DNA from: a virus
Length of the DNA stretch: 36,952 bases
Strand: one strand, 5' to 3'
UHGV virus genome: UHGV-0205834
The notes under the pieces were generated by a model. The model ran no database searches and was not told the DNA's origin. It saw only the letters and a list, made by a program, of their open reading frames with translations. Position 1 is the stretch's first letter. The number at the start of each line of letters is the position of its first letter. This document shows, in pieces, positions 876 to 5,452 of this stretch. The translations under genes and the position numbers were made by a program.

Positions 876-1091
876 TTGAGAGGGTATAAAATGAAAATTG
901 GAATGAGAAAACCGAGCATAAAGAAATCTATCAGCGCTAGAACAACTGGTAAAGCAAAACGTACTGTAAAAAAATCAGTTATTCCTAGTTATGGGAAAAA
1001 GGGTTCGGGATGGATCAAAGATCCCAAAAAGGCTGCTTACAACAAAGTTTACAAGAGAACTTCGTTTAGTTTTTGGGATTTATTTAAATAA
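876..1091 (+). CDS. small lysine-rich basic protein (hypothetical, moron candidate)
   Basis: 71-aa ORF directly after the repressor, RBS GAGGGT 5 nt upstream. About 30 percent Lys/Arg, no recognisable domain. Confidence 0.4.
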   Translation: MRGYKMKIGMRKPSIKKSISARTTGKAKRTVKKSVIPSYGKKGSGWIKDPKKAAYNKVYKRTSFSFWDLFK

Positions 1092-1176: not shown

Positions 1177-1617
1177 ATGAAATTTATTAAATTTGGAATT
1201 ATTGGATTATTAGCAGTGACAGTTATGGGAGGATGTGGATCATCAACAGCTGAAACAAAGGAATCAAAAAATTATAGTGAGACAAACAGTACTATCAAAG
1301 AAGTAGACTCTGATCAAACTGCTGAATTTGCAACTATTGCCGAAAAACACATTAAAGAAATATATTCGATAGATAATTTGAAGATGGATTTAAAATCTAT
1401 CAAAGTTACTCAATTTCCTGACGATAAAAATGCAGAAACTGGTGAAGAGTACAAAAATGTCTATAATGGTACTGGAGATTTTACTTGGCAAGACAAAAAA
1501 TACAACTTTTCTTTGATTTACTCAAAAAAAGATGCGACTAATTACACTGTCCTATATCTATATAGTAATTTAGACCCTAATAAAGGTATAAATACACCAT
1601 TAGAAAGTGATCAATAA
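1177..1617 (+). CDS. lipoprotein (signal peptidase II type), candidate superinfection-exclusion/lysogenic-conversion protein
   Basis: 146 aa with RBS AAGGAG. N-terminus MKFIKFGIIGLLAVTVMGGC has a lipobox Cys at position 20 followed by a Ser/Thr-rich linker. It sits between repressor and integrase. Confidence 0.7.
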   Translation: MKFIKFGIIGLLAVTVMGGCGSSTAETKESKNYSETNSTIKEVDSDQTAEFATIAEKHIKEIYSIDNLKMDLKSIKVTQFPDDKNAETGEEYKNVYNGTGDFTWQDKKYNFSLIYSKKDATNYTVLYLYSNLDPNKGINTPLESDQ

Positions 1618-1714: not shown

Positions 1715-2863
1715 ATGGCAACATTCGAACAATACAAAAAGAAAAACGGTGAAAAATTGTGGAAGTTTCAAACTTATTTGGGAGTAGATCCCTTGACTGG
1801 CAAACAAGTGAGAACTACACGAAGAGGTTTTAAAACAAAAAAAGAAGCTCAATTAGCGCTGACCAAATTACAATTGGAATACGAAAGTAATGGTCTAAAT
1901 AAGTCTAAAGAGTTAACTTTTCAAGAAGTATACGATCTATGGATTGTAAATTATGAGCAAACAGTAAAAGAAAGTTCTTTCGTTAAAACAAAAGAACAGT
2001 TTGCGAATCATATATTACCAGCATTTGGTGCTCTTAAAATCAACAAAATATCGATTGATATAGCTCAAAAGTTCGCTAATGAAAAGGTAAAAAAATTTGT
2101 GTTGTATAGAGAATTCATCAATAATGCTTCGCGTATATGTGATTATGCTATTAAATTAGGATATCTACAAGATAATCCTTTTAAAAAAATCACAGTTCCA
2201 AAAAGAAAGGTCTCTGTTCATGAAGAAGATACTTTAAACTTTTTTAATAAAGAAGAACTAGAAATCTTTTTGAAATCAGTAGAAAAGAAAAAAGATATTC
2301 GTATGTATTCTTTTTTTCGGACACTAGCCTTCACAGGGATGCGCGTAGGCGAGCTCTTAGCTCTCACATGGAAAGACATTGATTTTAACGATAATTATAT
2401 CAAGATAAATAAAACTCTCGCCAGAGGAAAAAATAGACGCCTTTATGTAGAGCAACCTAAAACCAAAAATTCTAAGCGAGATATACCAGTCGATGATGAA
2501 ACTATGAACATCTTGAAGAAATGGCGATTAGAACAAAGAAAATGGTTGTTAACATTGGGAATTAATACGTTAAGCAAAAATCAACTGGTATTTTCTAACC
2601 AGAAAAACGAATATCTCCAATTATCTAAGCCTCGTAAATGGTTAGAAGTGATTATCAAACAAAATAATCTTAAACGTATTACTATTCATGGTCTTAGACA
2701 TACACATGCTAGTTTACTTTTAGAAGCTGGTGCAAATATTAAGGACGTACAAGAACGTTTAGGCCACTCGTCTATTCAAATCACTATGGATTTATATATC
2801 CACATTACAGACAAACGAAAAGAAAAAACAGCAGCGCAATTCGCAAAATATATCGGTATTTAA
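1715..2863 (+). CDS. int: site-specific tyrosine integrase
   Basis: 382 aa. C-terminal catalytic region R...HGLRHTHASLL...LGHSSIQITMDLYIHI matches the R-H-R-Y tyrosine recombinase signature. attP-like repeats lie immediately downstream. Confidence 0.9.
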   Translation: MATFEQYKKKNGEKLWKFQTYLGVDPLTGKQVRTTRRGFKTKKEAQLALTKLQLEYESNGLNKSKELTFQEVYDLWIVNYEQTVKESSFVKTKEQFANHILPAFGALKINKISIDIAQKFANEKVKKFVLYREFINNASRICDYAIKLGYLQDNPFKKITVPKRKVSVHEEDTLNFFNKEELEIFLKSVEKKKDIRMYSFFRTLAFTGMRVGELLALTWKDIDFNDNYIKINKTLARGKNRRLYVEQPKTKNSKRDIPVDDETMNILKKWRLEQRKWLLTLGINTLSKNQLVFSNQKNEYLQLSKPRKWLEVIIKQNNLKRITIHGLRHTHASLLLEAGANIKDVQERLGHSSIQITMDLYIHITDKRKEKTAAQFAKYIGI

Positions 2864-2865
2864 GC

Positions 2866-3135
2866 AGAACGTATTCAAAGACGTATTCAAACAAAAAAAC
2901 AGAGGCGAAAACATTGCAAGCAAATGCCTGTATATCAATGTTTTCTCCTCTATTATGAAATGTTATATAAGGAAGGTACAGGATTTATATATGACTGGTA
3001 ATAGAAGAAAATTACTAGCATAGTTTAGCGATTTACCCTAATTTTTGCTTCTAGTTATAAAATATTAGCACTAACTAAATTTCAAAACGTAGTCAAAAAC
3101 GTATTTAAAATTGTAATCGGGTAAGTGTTCGAAAA
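2866..3135. other. putative attP: two tandem pairs of arm-type repeats AACGTA(T/G)T(C/T)AAA (2868-2892 and 3088-3111) flanking a ~195-bp AT-rich presumed core region
   Basis: Direct repeats ACGTATTCAAA at 2869-2879 and 2881-2891. AACGTAGTCAAA at 3088-3099 and AACGTATTTAAA at 3100-3111. Non-coding and directly 3' of int. Confidence 0.5.
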
Positions 3136-3165
3136 CTATTATTAAACTAGATTTATCTATGTACT

Positions 3166-3197
3166 TCCCCCTCAAACTTTGAGGGGCTATTTTTTAT
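3166..3197 (+). terminator. Rho-independent terminator (CCCCTCAAA..TTTGAGGGG + CTATTTTTTA)
   Basis: Perfect 8-9 bp GC-rich inverted repeat at 3167-3186 followed by a T-run at 3189-3196. Confidence 0.6.
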
Positions 3198-3368
3198 CGT
3201 TGCGGAATATTCAAGTACCAGCGTTTATCATGAAAATCTTGTGCTCCGCCTTTAGTGTTCCCTTCTGGATCATTCGTTGCACGCATCATGCATATATTTT
3301 TCTAATAGGCTAATTACGAATTTATTTTGTTATGATAAAATAAAATTTGTGAATTGGAAGGTGAAAGA

Positions 3369-3935
3369 ATGTCAGAGGAACAACATAAATTAATAAAAAC
3401 AGTAAATAATTTTTTACATTGGTATTTAGGTAAAGAATACACACCCAAAGATATCTTAGAATTAATCTTAACTATTGTAGCTATCGTTTTTGTAATATTT
3501 GGTTTTTTAAAAAACAAAACATACTATGAAGATGTGTCTCTAGAATTCTACTCTATAGATACGCAAGGAAAATATTTCCCTCAGAATATTTATGATGAAA
3601 TAGCATTAGATGAAAGTCCCACAAAAATTGTTCTAGTTTCCCCTGCAAACGTGCCCATGAAAGTTGACATCATGAAATTTAAAGATATGAAAAACGATAG
3701 TGAACTTATATATAAATCTATGGGTTACTCTAAAACTATTAAGCCTGGTGATGCACTAAAAATTGCCTATACAGAAAGTGAAGGGATTCCTAATTATCAA
3801 CTTCATATTTCAACAGAATATGGCGAAACAGATGTACCATTGATCTATAACGGAAGATACAACAATATAAATAAAACAAAAATAAAAGCTACTAGAAAAG
3901 TTATACCATATTTTTTAGACAAAATATTGAATTAA
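3369..3935 (+). CDS. membrane-anchored protein of unknown function (moron between attP and the lysis cassette)
   Basis: 188 aa from ATG 3369 (RBS AAGGTGA). The track ORF starts at 3354. One predicted TM helix (ILELILTIVAIVFVIFGFL) with a ~140-aa extracytoplasmic domain. Opposite strand to all structural genes, with its own terminator. Confidence 0.6.
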   Translation: MSEEQHKLIKTVNNFLHWYLGKEYTPKDILELILTIVAIVFVIFGFLKNKTYYEDVSLEFYSIDTQGKYFPQNIYDEIALDESPTKIVLVSPANVPMKVDIMKFKDMKNDSELIYKSMGYSKTIKPGDALKIAYTESEGIPNYQLHISTEYGETDVPLIYNGRYNNINKTKIKATRKVIPYFLDKILN

Positions 3936-3944
3936 CTATGTACC

Positions 3945-3968
3945 GCCCCTCATCGAGGGGCTTTTTTT
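3945..3968 (+). terminator. Rho-independent terminator (GCCCCTC-ATC-GAGGGGC + T7), shared tail-to-tail with the endolysin gene
   Basis: Perfect 7-bp stem at 3945-3961, then TTTTTTT at 3962-3968. Confidence 0.7.
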
Positions 3969-5244
3969 AATATGATAGTACTTGACCTGGATAAATCAAG
4001 TTAGGATTTGATAATCCATTGCGCTGTGCCAGCGCTTGATACGTTGTGCCTAACTTAGATGCGATTGATGATAAATTATCGCCTGATCGAACAGTGTATG
4101 TTCTAGTAACATTTGCTATTCCGCTCACTTTTAGAACTTGTCCAGCATAGATCATATTCGGATTGCTTAGTCCATTTAACGAAGCAAGTGCTTGATACGT
4201 TGTTCCGTATTTTGCAGCAATCGAAGATAGTGTTTCTCCATATTGGACGATATGGGTTTGGATAGCAGCTGATGGTTTGTCTGGAACAGTTGTAGAATCT
4301 GGCAAGATTTCTACATTTGATTTTTCAATCCAAGATAAAATATTTGCAAGTAAAACTTTGTTGCCATTTATCTGTTGAACCTTGTAGCTTTCTCCTTTTA
4401 CCCATTGTGGGATTGCTTCTCCAGTTGCCCAGTTTTTCGCTGAAAAATTCACTTTCACAGTGTCGCCCACTTTAATTTCTGATTTTGGCGTATCATTAGC
4501 TTCTTCCCCTGCATCCGTTGCTGGAGTATCTGTTGCTGGTTTATCTGAACCTGTATAACCATTGTCTGTAATGCCAGTTAAATCGATATTACCATCTAAT
4601 CCACCAGCAATATAAGTTGAGGTAAATTGATAGATACCGATACCGTCCAGCGATGGAAAAATATTCCAGTTAGGAGTTAGCGTTACATTATAATCAGGAT
4701 AAGCAGAGATCCATAGCGAATCTGGAAACTCTTTGATTACTTGCTGATAATAAGCATTAGCTAATAAAAACGGCTTTCCTGAATAAAGCATTGGAGTATA
4801 GCCTGCTGCTTTAATTCGCCGCATACCATAAAGAATGGCATCCGTATTAGCTTGCTTATTAGAAGATGCCCCACCCTCGAAATCAATCGCTACAATTGAA
4901 CCTTTAGGCGTTTGAATCTTTGGCAAGAAATAATCCATCGTTTGTTTAGCAATTGCTGGGGAACCCCACACATCCCACCAAATATAGGTATGCGCTCGTT
5001 TGCCTTGCGCAATTGCAGAAGCAACTTGCGTGGAGTAGGTCCATTGGTCATATAAACCAGCTCCGTTATAACCACCAATTTGTGCAATAGCAAATTTATC
5101 ATGAGCGTACCCAAATCTTCCGTTCTCCCCTTGATAAATCGACCAATCCACACCCTGATCATTTTTTGCAGCAAACCCATTAATTGGCAATAAAAAAAGA
5201 GCCATTAATAGGCTCATCGCAGTAACAGTAATTTTCTTTTTCAT
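3967..5244 (-). CDS. endolysin: Sec signal peptide, GH25-like muramidase domain, SH3-like middle region, two C-terminal LysM repeats
   Basis: 425 aa. N-terminus MKKKITVTAMSLLMALFLLPINGFAA looks like a signal peptide. Two LysM-type repeats (…YGETLSSIAAKYGTTYQALASLNGLSNPNMIYAGQVLKV and …SGDNLSSIASKLGTTYQALAQRNGLSNPNLIYPGQVL). Last gene of the late operon. Confidence 0.75.
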   Translation of the reverse strand: MKKKITVTAMSLLMALFLLPINGFAAKNDQGVDWSIYQGENGRFGYAHDKFAIAQIGGYNGAGLYDQWTYSTQVASAIAQGKRAHTYIWWDVWGSPAIAKQTMDYFLPKIQTPKGSIVAIDFEGGASSNKQANTDAILYGMRRIKAAGYTPMLYSGKPFLLANAYYQQVIKEFPDSLWISAYPDYNVTLTPNWNIFPSLDGIGIYQFTSTYIAGGLDGNIDLTGITDNGYTGSDKPATDTPATDAGEEANDTPKSEIKVGDTVKVNFSAKNWATGEAIPQWVKGESYKVQQINGNKVLLANILSWIEKSNVEILPDSTTVPDKPSAAIQTHIVQYGETLSSIAAKYGTTYQALASLNGLSNPNMIYAGQVLKVSGIANVTRTYTVRSGDNLSSIASKLGTTYQALAQRNGLSNPNLIYPGQVLSY

Positions 5245-5254
5245 TTGTTTCCTC

Positions 5255-5452
5255 CTATTTTTTCAAATTATAAGCCGACACACCAGTGATAACGCCTAAA
5301 AATGTTGCTACTGCATTGATAGTGAGTACTGTCATATCTGTTCCATTCCATCCATACGCTTTTCCTAACGTGGCTACTAAAACAGATGCAGCTGGTAAAA
5401 CTGTTAAAACCGTCCATTTAATGATTTGATAATACTTATCTGGTAAAATCAT
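5255..5452 (-). CDS. holin (small, two-TM class)
   Basis: 65 aa with two hydrophobic segments and a charged C-terminus (NLKK). Directly upstream of the endolysin. Confidence 0.65.
   Translation of the reverse strand: MILPDKYYQIIKWTVLTVLPAASVLVATLGKAYGWNGTDMTVLTINAVATFLGVITGVSAYNLKK

What the first reader, a model, noticed from the sequence alone, without database searches (positions are those of the whole stretch)
3196..3968. Self-contained + strand membrane-protein cassette wedged between attP and the endolysin
3369-3935 is transcribed against all structural genes. It is bracketed by two strong Rho-independent terminators (3166-3197 upstream, 3945-3968 downstream) and has an AT-rich promoter-like leader of its own. 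It encodes an N-in single-pass membrane protein with a ~140-aa external domain and no recognisable family. After integration it would sit at the extreme prophage end reading inward. That is the typical layout of lysogen-expressed conversion, exclusion or abortive-infection genes. It has no obvious annotation.
Basis: partly seen in the sequence, partly recalled or inferred. Interest (0 to 1): 0.55.

Follow-up and report, generated by a model that had tools for sequence, protein, structure and literature searches.

The report
Orphan membrane-protein moron beside phage lysin
A temperate Enterococcus faecium phage carries, at the end of its prophage next to the lysis gene, a real stand-alone gene for a small membrane-anchored protein of an uncharacterised family; it most likely protects the lysogen (for example by excluding other phages), but this is an ordinary kind of phage add-on gene and its function is untested.

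Summary
3369-3935 (+) is a real 188-aa gene (dN/dS 0.10-0.33). It has one TM helix and a ~140-aa beta-sandwich domain. It lies between two + strand intrinsic terminators, between a verified tRNA-type attP (crossover at or before 2986) and a GH25-LysM endolysin, opposite to all lytic genes.

One correction. The upstream terminator and most of the "leader" (3158-3321) are the fossil 3' end of a different, amidase-type endolysin with its terminator. Sibling phages with the same integrase and attP carry that lysin intact and lack the gene. So segment ~3322-5170 (promoter, gene, terminator, GH25 lysin body) replaced an older lysin body. The only promoter signal is a conserved extended -10, TGATAAAAT.

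The protein belongs to a tiny orphan family: 10 representatives among 1.8 billion, from Enterococcus and Latilactobacillus. In intact prophages it always sits in the lysin-attP slot, convergent with the lysin. Pfam, NCBIfam, PHROGs, PADLOC, PDB and Foldseek gave nothing. It is not related to Sie2009.

It passes the tests for a moron: terminator, empty-site relatives, lowest GC in the genome. Best guess for function is a lysogen-expressed protein that blocks superinfecting phages at the outer membrane face (about 0.4). Function is inferred, not shown. Moderate to low interest.

The parts
2864..3157 (.). attP region. Arm-type direct repeats (ACGTATTCAAA-like) lie at 2865-2891 and 3083-3109. The crossover core ends at 2986. 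The core matches the 3' end of a tRNA gene.
   Evidence: Repeats. The prophage junction L040 is identical to the window up to 2986 and then continues into a host flank, GGATTTGAACCTGCG..., which is a tRNA T-arm in reverse complement. The left edge of the core was not determined.
3158..3197 (+). Terminator 1: stem-loop 3168-3186 plus T-run. It is the inherited terminator of the displaced lysin, and it is the left mosaic joint of the block.
   Evidence: -12.2 kcal/mol, z -3.1. The 99% identity of L015 and L017-L019 to the window begins exactly at 3155-3158. It is homologous to the terminator downstream of the intact lysA in phage 4995_2, L002, L049 and L064.
3194..3321 (-). Fossil 3' end of an amidase-type endolysin (lysA). 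There are 31 intact codons, MMRATNDPEGNTKGGAQDFHDKRWYLNIPQR, plus the stop (3194-3289). Nucleotide homology continues to about 3321.
   Evidence: 84% identity to the lysA 3' end in E. durans prophage L002 and in phage 4995_2. The peptide is identical to the C-terminus of the 339-aa lysA. The fragment is frameshifted in L006 and L020 and heavily decayed in the L002 copy, so it is not under selection.
3314..3341 (+). Putative promoter: weak -35 TTACGA (3314-3319), 16-nt spacer, extended -10 TG-a-TAAAAT (3333-3341). The -35 lies in fossil-derived DNA and the -10 in cassette DNA.
   Evidence: Read from the sequence. TTATGATAAAATAA is conserved in all diverged cassette copies: window, L006, L020 and L002. 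The consensus scan did NOT call it, so it is inferred.
3356..3364 (+). Ribosome-binding site GGAAGGTGA, 4 nt before the ATG.
3369..3935 (+). Gene for a 188-aa orphan-family membrane protein. It has a short N-terminal amphipathic helix, a TM helix at 29-47, a conserved juxtamembrane NKTYYED motif, an acidic beta-sandwich at 49-177, and a basic C-terminal tail and helix (TKIKATRKVIPYFLDKILN).
3937..3968 (+). Terminator 2: stem-loop 3945-3961 plus T7. It is shared with the convergent lysin and is 97% identical to the terminator that follows lysA in phage 4995_2. The T-run is on the + strand only.
   Evidence: With 3150-3197 it forms an imperfect ~45-nt direct repeat flanking the cassette (families D3 and D4).
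3967..5244 (-). GH25-LysM endolysin (lysB). Its mature part (3967-5170) came in with the cassette. Codons 1-25 (5170-5244, signal-peptide-like MKKKITVTAMSLLMALFLLPINGFA) are shared with lysA and mark the right recombination joint.
   Evidence: Pfam. 96% identity to phage 4995_2 resumes at 5171. The N-termini are identical.

Best explanation
The feature is a moron: an autonomous add-on gene in the lysin-attP slot of a temperate Enterococcus faecium siphophage.

Origin. One recombination event put a segment (about 3322-5170) into a phage whose layout was int-attP-terminator-amidase lysin. The segment carried a promoter, the gene, a terminator and the mature part of a GH25-LysM lysin. It replaced the body of the old lysin. 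What remains of the old lysin is its last ~40 codons and its terminator upstream of the gene (31 codons are still an intact reading frame; nucleotide homology runs on to about 3321), plus its signal-peptide codons fused to the new lysin.

After integration at a tRNA gene, the cassette lies about 200-950 bp inside attR and reads inward. Terminator 1 would shield it from host read-through. A conserved extended -10 promoter would drive it. Terminator 2 would stop it before the lysin.

Product. It is a single-pass (probably N-in, C-out) membrane protein. Its acidic beta-sandwich sits directly on the outer face of the membrane, with a conserved aromatic and acidic juxtamembrane motif and a basic C-terminal amphipathic tail.

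Inferred function. It is expressed in the lysogen and acts at the membrane-wall interface to block a step of infection by incoming phages, that is, superinfection exclusion at DNA entry or at a membrane receptor. This would be analogous to, but not homologous with, Sie2009 or HK97 gp15.

What is shown: the anatomy, the origin, the mobility and the purifying selection. What is inferred: expression in the lysogen, the topology and the exclusion function.
For: Real gene:
- The ORF is kept across 47-99% identity, with dN/dS 0.10-0.33.
- The exact protein is in E. faecium genomes, and a near-identical variant is on 305 contigs.

Moron criteria:
- Terminators are present.
- Empty-site relatives exist with the same integrase and attP and an intact lysA: L049 and L064. 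Phage 4995_2 and E. durans L002 show terminator-lysA without the gene.
- GC is 27.9%, the lowest 567-nt window of the genome (mean 36.7, sd 3.3).
- The block has sharp mosaic edges at 3158 and at 3935 or 5170.

Slot and orientation:
- In all intact contexts the gene is convergent with a lysin 35-1500 bp away. This holds for 13 IMG/VR loci, E. hirae, E. thailandicus and Latilactobacillus phage TMW 1.46 P2.
- The lysin types differ among these contexts.
- In relatives the same slot carries other cargo: DUF4231, a CBAH family (choloylglycine/bile salt hydrolase) protein, and in phiEf11 a membrane protein and a lipoprotein.

Architecture consistent with action at the outer membrane face:
- There is a TM helix followed by a beta-sandwich with no linker.
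- The most conserved parts are the juxtamembrane and C-terminal membrane-proximal segments.
- Only about 25 cytoplasmic residues are present.
- The overall plan is the same as Sie2009.
- The domain core is acidic, unlike the basic, nucleic-acid-binding-like cytoplasmic domains of Abi proteins (PMC10127798).
Against: - There is no expression data.
- The consensus promoter scan found no + strand promoter.
- There is no homology to any known Sie, Abi or defence family. PHROGs and PADLOC were negative. hhalign against Sie2009 gave probability 0.1%, while Sie2009 itself hit the Sie PHROG at 1.7e-79.
- The phage already has a lipoprotein in the classical Sie/Ltp slot between repressor and integrase (1177-1617).
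- Topology from charge bias is weak for this sequence.
- The fold matches are generic Ig-like sandwiches, with E-values no better than 0.004-0.006, so they give no functional hint.
- A membrane-anchored ectodomain is equally compatible with functions unrelated to phages.
Confidence: 0.4

Rival explanations
1. It is a lysogenic-conversion factor unrelated to phage defence. The membrane-anchored ectodomain would change an envelope property of the lysogen. Examples are tolerance to bacteriocins, to cell-wall-active agents or to gut stresses, or modulation of a host membrane protein.
For: In related prophages the same slot carries non-defence cargo, such as a CBAH family (choloylglycine/bile salt hydrolase) protein. 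The gene is common in E. faecium and E. lactis genomes. The E. durans copy persists next to lepA without an intact adjacent prophage lysin and is still under purifying selection. No defence-family signal was found.
Against: There is no enzymatic or binding motif and no homology to immunity proteins. The domain has no linker, so it is too close to the membrane to reach the cell surface, which limits the possible targets. In all intact contexts the family is confined to the phage or prophage lysin-att slot.
Confidence: 0.22
2. It is an abortive-infection type membrane effector, like PdpSau or AbiP. It would be anchored in the membrane, sense infection, then depolarise or permeabilise the membrane and kill the infected cell.
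For: PdpSau of S. aureus prophages is also a membrane-anchored accessory protein tightly linked to the holin and amidase genes at the prophage end (PMC10127798). The neighbouring cargo DUF4231 in sibling prophages occupies the same slot; from my own recollection, not tested here, DUF4231 is a defence-associated SLATT-like membrane domain. The charge-based topology is not decisive, so a cytoplasmic C-domain is not excluded.
Against: The C-domain core is acidic (net -4 to -12 in most members) and is a beta-sandwich. It is not a basic OB-fold. There was no PADLOC hit. If the topology is N-in, only about 25 residues face the cytoplasm, which is little to sense with. A single TM helix shows no pore-forming features.
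Confidence: 0.12
3. It is a lysin-linked function. The protein would protect lysogens from the phage's own secreted endolysin released by lysing siblings, or it would tune lysis. That would explain why the gene always abuts a lysin.
For: The convergent position next to a lysin is conserved from 34% to 99% identity and across two genera. The gene is directly coupled to a GH25-LysM lysin in the window, in E. hirae and in the Latilactobacillus phage, where the lysin is 57% identical. Gene and lysin body entered this phage as one segment. The lysins carry signal-peptide-like N-termini. phiEf11 lysogeny is reported to make E. faecalis resistant to the phage's own endolysin (PMC12540744).
Against: The gene has the opposite orientation and its own promoter, so it is not in the late lysis operon. 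The family also sits beside unrelated Amidase_2 lysins, sometimes with 1-1.5 kb of other genes in between, and in E. durans beside no lysin. The lysin-att slot is the generic cargo site of these phages. A domain hugging the membrane cannot shield a thick peptidoglycan layer. phiEf11 has no homologue.
Confidence: 0.08
4. It is a non-functional passenger: a hitch-hiking ORF carried along with the lysin swap.
For: No family, motif or phenotype is known. Some genomes carry truncated versions (cluster P0006 at 133 aa, and partial entries).
Against: dN/dS is 0.10-0.33 over saturating synonymous divergence. The full-length ORF, promoter -10 and RBS are conserved in diverged copies, while the adjacent lysin fossil decays. 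The gene is kept with three different downstream partners.
Confidence: 0.03

Closest known systems
Morons of temperate phages (Hendrix/Juhala concept; e.g. the HK97 gp15 moron, cited via PMC6356687 ref. 36)
   Same: A single gene with its own terminator and a putative promoter. It is inserted between genes that are adjacent in sibling phages. Its base composition is atypical. It is oriented so that it can be expressed from the repressed prophage. HK97 gp15 is also a small membrane protein, and it acts in superinfection exclusion.
   Different: No sequence or fold relation. Here the insertion did not simply separate two genes. It came together with a replacement lysin body and left a lysin fossil. 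Promoter activity has not been shown.
Sie2009-type superinfection exclusion proteins of lactococcal P335 prophages (Tuc2009 orf2; phrog_8545)
   Same: Similar size (173 against 188 aa) and the same plan: a short N-terminus, one TM helix and a C-terminal domain of about 110-140 aa. Both are prophage-encoded and sit on the lysogeny strand.
   Different: No homology: hhalign probability 0.1% and no Sie PHROG hit. Sie2009 lies between integrase and repressor and has a Ser/Thr-rich linker. This gene lies between attP and the lysin and has no linker.
PdpSau / AbiP membrane-anchored abortive-infection proteins (PMC10127798)
   Same: A prophage accessory gene physically linked to the holin and lysin genes at the prophage end, with an N-terminal membrane anchor.
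   Different: PdpSau has 278 aa and a basic, OB-fold-like cytoplasmic domain. This protein has an acidic beta-sandwich that is probably extracytoplasmic. There is no sequence similarity and no PADLOC hit.
Ltp lipoprotein of S. thermophilus phage TP-J34 (cited in PMC6356687 ref. 38)
   Same: A prophage-encoded, surface-anchored protein expressed in lysogens. It blocks DNA injection by binding the tape measure protein.
   Different: From my own recollection, not tested here, Ltp is a lipoprotein with helix-turn-helix repeat domains. This protein has no lipobox and is all-beta. The window phage has a separate lipoprotein (1177-1617) in the Ltp-like position.

Membership tests
Moron (autonomous add-on gene of a temperate phage) | Own transcription terminator directly downstream | tested here: met
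   Stem-loop 3945-3961 plus T7, -13.8 kcal/mol, z -3.9. The caveat is that it is the shared lysin-downstream terminator of this phage group.
Moron (autonomous add-on gene of a temperate phage) | Own promoter, active in the prophage | tested here: inconclusive
   The consensus scan finds none on the + strand. A conserved extended -10, TGATAAAAT, lies at 3333-3341. Activity cannot be tested here.
Moron (autonomous add-on gene of a temperate phage) | Absent from closely related phages in which the flanking elements are adjacent | tested here: met
   L049 and L064 have the same integrase (99%), the same attP plus terminator (94%) and an intact lysA, with no gene. Phage 4995_2 and L002 agree.
Moron (autonomous add-on gene of a temperate phage) | Base composition different from the surrounding genome | tested here: met
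   GC is 27.9% against 36.7 +/- 3.3%. No 567-nt window of the genome is lower.
Sie2009 family (phrog_8545) | Sequence or profile homology to Sie2009 | tested here: not met
   hhalign of A1 against Tuc2009 orf2 gives probability 0.1%. There is no Sie PHROG among the hits. As a positive control, Sie2009 hits phrog_8545 at 1.7e-79.
Sie2009 family (phrog_8545) | Gene located between integrase and repressor | tested here: not met
   The gene lies between attP and the lysin.
Sie2009 family (phrog_8545) | Membrane protein that blocks phage DNA injection without affecting adsorption | not testable with these tools
   A TM helix and ectodomain are predicted. The phenotype needs experiments.
PdpSau/AbiP-type membrane Abi | N-terminal membrane anchor plus a basic OB-fold-like cytoplasmic domain | tested here: not met
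   The anchor is present. However, the domain is an acidic beta-sandwich (net -7 in its core), and the listed top Foldseek PDB matches were generic beta-sandwich or Ig-like folds (ApaG, C2, RhoGDI, arrestin-like), with no OB-fold among them.
Known anti-phage defence systems (PADLOC-DB v2) | Match to any defence-protein HMM | tested here: not met
   0 families at E <= 10.
Lysis accessory proteins (holin, antiholin, XhlA-like) | Co-oriented and co-transcribed with the lysis genes, with homology to holin families | tested here: not met
   The gene is on the opposite strand, with a terminator in between. It has no Pfam or PHROG holin hit. The phage has its own Dp-1 holin and XhlA.
Lipoprotein Sie (Ltp-like) | Lipobox signal peptide | tested here: not met
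   There is no Cys in the protein. The N-terminus is a 28-residue polar segment before the TM helix.

The most novel reading that the evidence does not exclude
The gene is a lysin-coupled immunity factor. It would travel with a secreted endolysin as one exchange unit and protect lysogens from lysis-from-without by that lysin when sibling cells are induced. This would give a genetic basis for the endolysin resistance of lysogens reported for E. faecalis phiEf11 (PMC12540744). The evidence does not exclude it. The gene always abuts a lysin across two genera, and it entered this phage together with the GH25-LysM lysin body. Against it, the gene also sits beside unrelated amidases, and it occurs without a lysin in E. 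durans.
Probability: 0.08. Interest if true: 0.7.

Novelty: new member of a known kind. Interest (0 to 1): 0.35.

Why it matters
E. faecium is a priority target for phage therapy. Cargo genes expressed from prophages are one main reason why therapeutic phages fail on particular strains. This gene is common: the commonest variant is on 305 contigs of E. faecium and E. lactis. It is completely unannotated, and it sits in the slot where enterococcal prophages keep fitness and defence cargo. If it excludes phages, it would be a new Sie family for enterococci, where no Sie protein came up in the limited literature searches run here.

The locus also offers a ready-made natural experiment. Sibling phages with the same integrase and attP lack the cassette. 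The locus is also a clean, datable example of how morons and lysin modules are exchanged together, using the lysin-downstream terminator and the signal-peptide codons as recombination joints. If the gene has no phenotype, the finding is simply one more hypothetical moron.

Tried and rejected
1. Family searches of the protein and of 12 family members against Pfam, NCBIfam, PHROGs and PADLOC gave nothing significant.

2. A profile search of the PDB sequences gave only noise, E >= 0.15.

3. An AF2 model (pLDDT 79) was searched with Foldseek against PDB and BFVD. No hit was below E 1e-3. Only generic Ig-like, ApaG, C2 or RhoGDI sandwiches appeared. An archaeal pilin hit reflects helix-plus-sandwich geometry only.

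4. An exhaustive HMM search of 1.8 billion representatives gave only 10 hits. One is a weak match to FN3-like repeats of a 1328-aa protein (P0020), judged to be generic beta-sandwich similarity.

5. I considered that the gene was captured from the host chromosome by aberrant excision, because in E. durans it lies next to lepA, just outside a prophage integrated in the lepA 3' end. I rejected this. That copy also carries the lysin fossil upstream, so it is itself a prophage remnant.

6. I considered that the flanking ~45-nt direct repeat (3150-3197 and 3929-3971) is a target-site duplication. I rejected this. Both copies are homologues of the ordinary terminator that follows lysins in cassette-less phages.

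7. I considered that the 31-codon fossil ORF, or the antisense 44-aa ORF at 3179-3313, is a real small gene. I rejected this. The fossil is frameshifted in E. hirae and L020 and decayed in E. durans.

8. I considered an ECF sigma/anti-sigma pairing, because some relatives have an upstream 145-aa HTH/sigma70_r4-like gene. I did not pursue it. The window lacks that gene, the cytoplasmic segment is only about 25 residues, and the HTH hits are weak.

9. An Rfam scan of 2800-4100 found nothing.

10. Literature searches found no paper on this family.

11. Mahony et al. 2008 (PMC2570291) is not held, so Sie2009 properties rest on the sequence read here and on citations in PMC6356687.
Full report
**1. 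What is in the sequence**

The window is a temperate siphophage genome of the Enterococcus faecium/lactis group, linearised at its genetic switch.

- The + strand carries an S24/HTH repressor (31-870), a 71-aa basic ORF, a lipoprotein (1177-1617) and a tyrosine integrase (1715-2863).
- Every ORF of 90 aa or more from 3967 to 36526 that is not nested inside a larger - strand ORF lies on the - strand. The series starts with a GH25-LysM endolysin (3967-5244), a Dp-1-type holin and XhlA.
- ORF 3369-3935 is the only other + strand gene. It has a good RBS, GGAAGGTGA, 4 nt before the ATG.
- It is bracketed by two + strand intrinsic terminators. 3168-3186 has 8 bp and folds at -12.2 kcal/mol (z -3.1). 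3945-3961 has 7 bp and a T7 run and folds at -13.8 kcal/mol (z -3.9). Both have T-runs on the + strand only.
- Terminator-like sites are enriched here: 3 against 0.9 +/- 0.9 in shuffles.

**2. attP is real, and the gene ends up at the prophage end**

- An integrated relative with a 99% identical integrase (L040) is identical to the window up to position 2986. It then continues into a host flank that reads as the reverse complement of a tRNA T-arm.
- Arm-type direct repeats (ACGTATTCAAA-like) flank this point at 2865-2891 and 3083-3109.

**3. The 'leader' is a fossil lysin**

- Window 3158-3321 is 84% identical to the terminator plus 3' end of an amidase-type endolysin, here called lysA. lysA is intact in E. 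durans prophages (L002) and in Enterococcus phage 4995_2.
- On the - strand, 3194-3289 still reads MMRATNDPEGNTKGGAQDFHDKRWYLNIPQR-stop. This is identical to the C-terminus of the 339-aa lysA of phage 4995_2.
- Phage 4995_2 has the simple layout int - attP - terminator - lysA - holin. Its terminator is 97% identical to the window's second terminator. Its holin and XhlA are 96% identical to the window from 5171 onward.
- Two IMG/VR phages (L049, L064) have the same integrase as the window (99%) and the same attP region and terminator (window 2864-3321 at 94%). They carry an intact 338/339-aa lysA and no cassette.
- The first 25 codons of the window's GH25 lysin are identical to those of lysA (MKKKITVTAMSLLMALFLLPINGFA, signal-peptide-like).

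Taken together, segment ~3322-5170 (promoter, gene, terminator 2, mature GH25-LysM lysin) replaced the body of lysA. One joint lies in the signal-peptide codons. The other is an illegitimate joint about 40 codons before the lysA stop.

The fossil is not selected. It is frameshifted in E. hirae (L006) and L020 and heavily decayed in the E. durans copy.

The ~45-nt direct repeat that flanks the cassette (3150-3197 and 3929-3971) is therefore two homologous lysin-downstream terminators, not a target duplication.

**4. Promoter**

The consensus scan calls no + strand promoter. By eye there is an extended -10, TG-a-TAAAAT (3333-3341), 16 nt after a weak -35, TTACGA (3314-3319). The block TTATGATAAAATAA is conserved in all diverged cassette copies, while the fossil next to it decays. 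A promoter is thus plausible but unproven.

**5. The cassette is mobile and mosaic**

- In four IMG/VR prophages (L015, L017-L019) the block 3158-5300 is 99% identical. The identity starts exactly at 3155-3158, which is the start of terminator 1. Upstream they differ.
- E. hirae has the whole block at 79% identity, behind other cargo: DUF4231, an 85-aa ORF and a CBAH family (choloylglycine/bile salt hydrolase) protein.
- L020 shares only 3158-3935, followed by a 173-aa ORF and a third kind of lysin.
- E. durans keeps fossil plus gene next to lepA, with or without a further prophage inserted into the lepA 3' end.
- The gene's GC (27.9%) is lower than that of every other 567-nt window of the genome (36.7 +/- 3.3%).

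All testable moron criteria are met. Promoter activity is the one left open.

**6. The protein**

- AF2 (pLDDT 79, shallow alignment) gives a helix at 3-20, a TM helix at 26-47, nine strands at 49-177 forming a beta-sandwich with no linker to the TM helix, and a C-terminal helix at 178-187.
- One hydrophobic segment (29-47) is evident.
- Flank charges only weakly favour N-in for this sequence. The distant members P0013 and P0014 have strongly basic N-termini.
- The sandwich core is acidic (net -7). The last 28 residues are basic (+6) and highly conserved.
- The most conserved parts are the juxtamembrane NKTYYED motif, ESEGIPNYQL, and NGRY..N.TKIK..RK.IPYF.
- dN/dS is 0.10-0.33 in all informative pairs, so this is a selected protein-coding gene.

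**7. Family**

- The word-indexed search found 13 clusters, all Enterococcus: faecium/lactis, hirae, durans, thailandicus and ratti.
- The exhaustive HMM search of 1.84 billion representatives found 10 proteins at E <= 1e-3.
- tblastn of 50,697 phage records found one homologue (34% identity) in Latilactobacillus phage TMW 1.46 P2. It is again convergent with, and abutting, a GH25-LysM lysin that is 57% identical to the window's.
- The exact window protein is in E. faecium genomes, and a near-identical variant is on 305 contigs. All are annotated 'hypothetical'.
- There is no Pfam, NCBIfam, PHROG, PADLOC or PDB-sequence match, and no Foldseek hit below 1e-3.

**8. Context rule**

In every intact phage or prophage context the gene lies between att/int and the lysis module, convergent with a lysin 35-1500 bp away. 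The lysin may be GH25-LysM, Amidase_2 or another type. In some relatives two co-oriented genes precede it: a 149-aa protein and a 145-aa HTH protein. phiEf11 of E. faecalis uses the same slot for an unrelated membrane protein and a lipoprotein.

**9. Mechanism**

Shown: an autonomous, exchanged, selected cargo gene at the prophage end that encodes a membrane-anchored beta-sandwich protein.

Inferred: it is made in the lysogen and works at the membrane-wall interface. My reasoning for superinfection exclusion as the most likely role (about 0.4) is as follows.
- Only about 25 residues are cytoplasmic.
- The domain hugs the membrane.
- Conservation is highest at the membrane-proximal segments.
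- The overall plan equals that of Sie2009.

It is not a member of the Sie2009 family. The phage also has a lipoprotein in the classical Sie slot.

Rivals:
- Conversion unrelated to phage defence (0.22).
- A PdpSau/AbiP-like Abi (0.12). Against this, the domain is acidic and not an OB-fold (PMC10127798).
- A lysin-coupled immunity or lysis function (0.08). The adjacency rule and the reported endolysin resistance of phiEf11 lysogens (PMC12540744) make this attractive. It is weakened by the variety of neighbouring lysins and by the opposite orientation.
- A non-functional passenger (0.03), contradicted by selection.

**10. Verdict**

This is a correct and well-read observation of an ordinary kind of feature: a new, unannotated member of the class of phage morons, from an orphan protein family. 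What the tools added is its exact origin. It arose by a lysin-module swap that left a fossil. The flanking terminators are inherited lysin terminators. Empty-site sibling phages exist. Interest is moderate to low unless a phenotype is found.

Noticed in passing
window 3967-5244 (lysin), codons 1-25 at 5170-5244; L014 4012-5031; L049 4799-5815: Two unrelated endolysins, GH25-LysM and an amidase type, share an identical 25-residue signal-peptide-like N-terminus (MKKKITVTAMSLLMALFLLPINGFA). This suggests Sec-exported endolysins, with the signal-peptide codons serving as a recombination joint for lysin domain swapping.
   Followed up: partly
window 1177-1617 (+): A 146-aa predicted lipoprotein (MKFIKFGIIGLLAVTVMGGC...) lies between repressor and integrase. 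This is the classical position of Sie/Ltp-type exclusion genes. There is no Pfam hit and only a weak match to phrog_1717 (unknown function).
   Followed up: partly
window 876-1091 (+): A 71-aa very basic ORF lies downstream of the repressor. It has strong matches to several PHROGs of unknown function (phrog_10934 at 1.5e-31), where it corresponds to the N-terminal 66 residues of longer proteins.
   Followed up: no
window 2864-3157; L040 4217-4317: The attP core matches a tRNA 3' end, with the crossover at or before 2986. Four ACGTATTCAAA-like arm repeats are present, and a hairpin at 2898-2954 lies just after the integrase stop.
   Followed up: partly
L064 4474-5631 (and a 316-nt insert in L049 4156-4471): In a sibling phage, a 385-aa ORF with a C-terminal CxxC...CxxC zinc-ribbon-like motif, resembling TnpB of IS200/IS605-family elements by eye (no family search was run), is inserted exactly between the integrase stop codon and the attP region. 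L049 has a shorter insert at the same point.
   Followed up: no
L002/L005 8185-10242; L006 3521-5578; L018 2224-3195; L020 3523-5578: Related E. hirae and E. durans prophages carry a CBAH family (choloylglycine/bile salt hydrolase) gene and a DUF4231 membrane protein in the same lysin-att cargo slot. A prophage-borne bile salt hydrolase could be a gut-fitness conversion gene.
   Followed up: no
L004 vs L005 (identical to 6894, inside the lepA 3' end); L011 9180-12245: The 3' end of lepA is a prophage integration site in E. durans and E. ratti. The E. durans copy of the cassette sits just outside that prophage, in what looks like an older prophage remnant with a further decayed lysin 3' end at L002 4995-5064.
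   Followed up: partly
L009 5076-5975; L021 4995-5891; L028 1226-2122: In E. thailandicus-type prophages the gene is preceded by two co-oriented genes: a 149-aa protein (phrog_2277 N-terminus) and a 145-aa HTH/sigma70-region-4-like protein. They may form a three-gene operon. E. ratti keeps a fragment of the first.
   Followed up: partly
hits H3, H7, H8 (PQ554527.1, OR846730.1, OR848098.1): Records named 'Acinetobacter phage D2SVT' and 'Listeria phage LM 4-11-1/4-14-1' are 89-91% identical to this Enterococcus phage's tail and lysis region. The host assignments of those records look doubtful.
   Followed up: no
L020 6001-6567: The L020 allele of the gene is a chimera. Residues 1-27 are identical to the E. 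hirae allele (P0002) and the rest to P0005. This indicates intragenic recombination near the start of the TM helix.
   Followed up: no
cluster of P0006: Several E. faecium and E. lactis genomes have only N-terminally truncated versions (119-139 aa, starting at V56 read as Met). These are either disrupted copies or gene-calling artefacts at contig ends.
   Followed up: no
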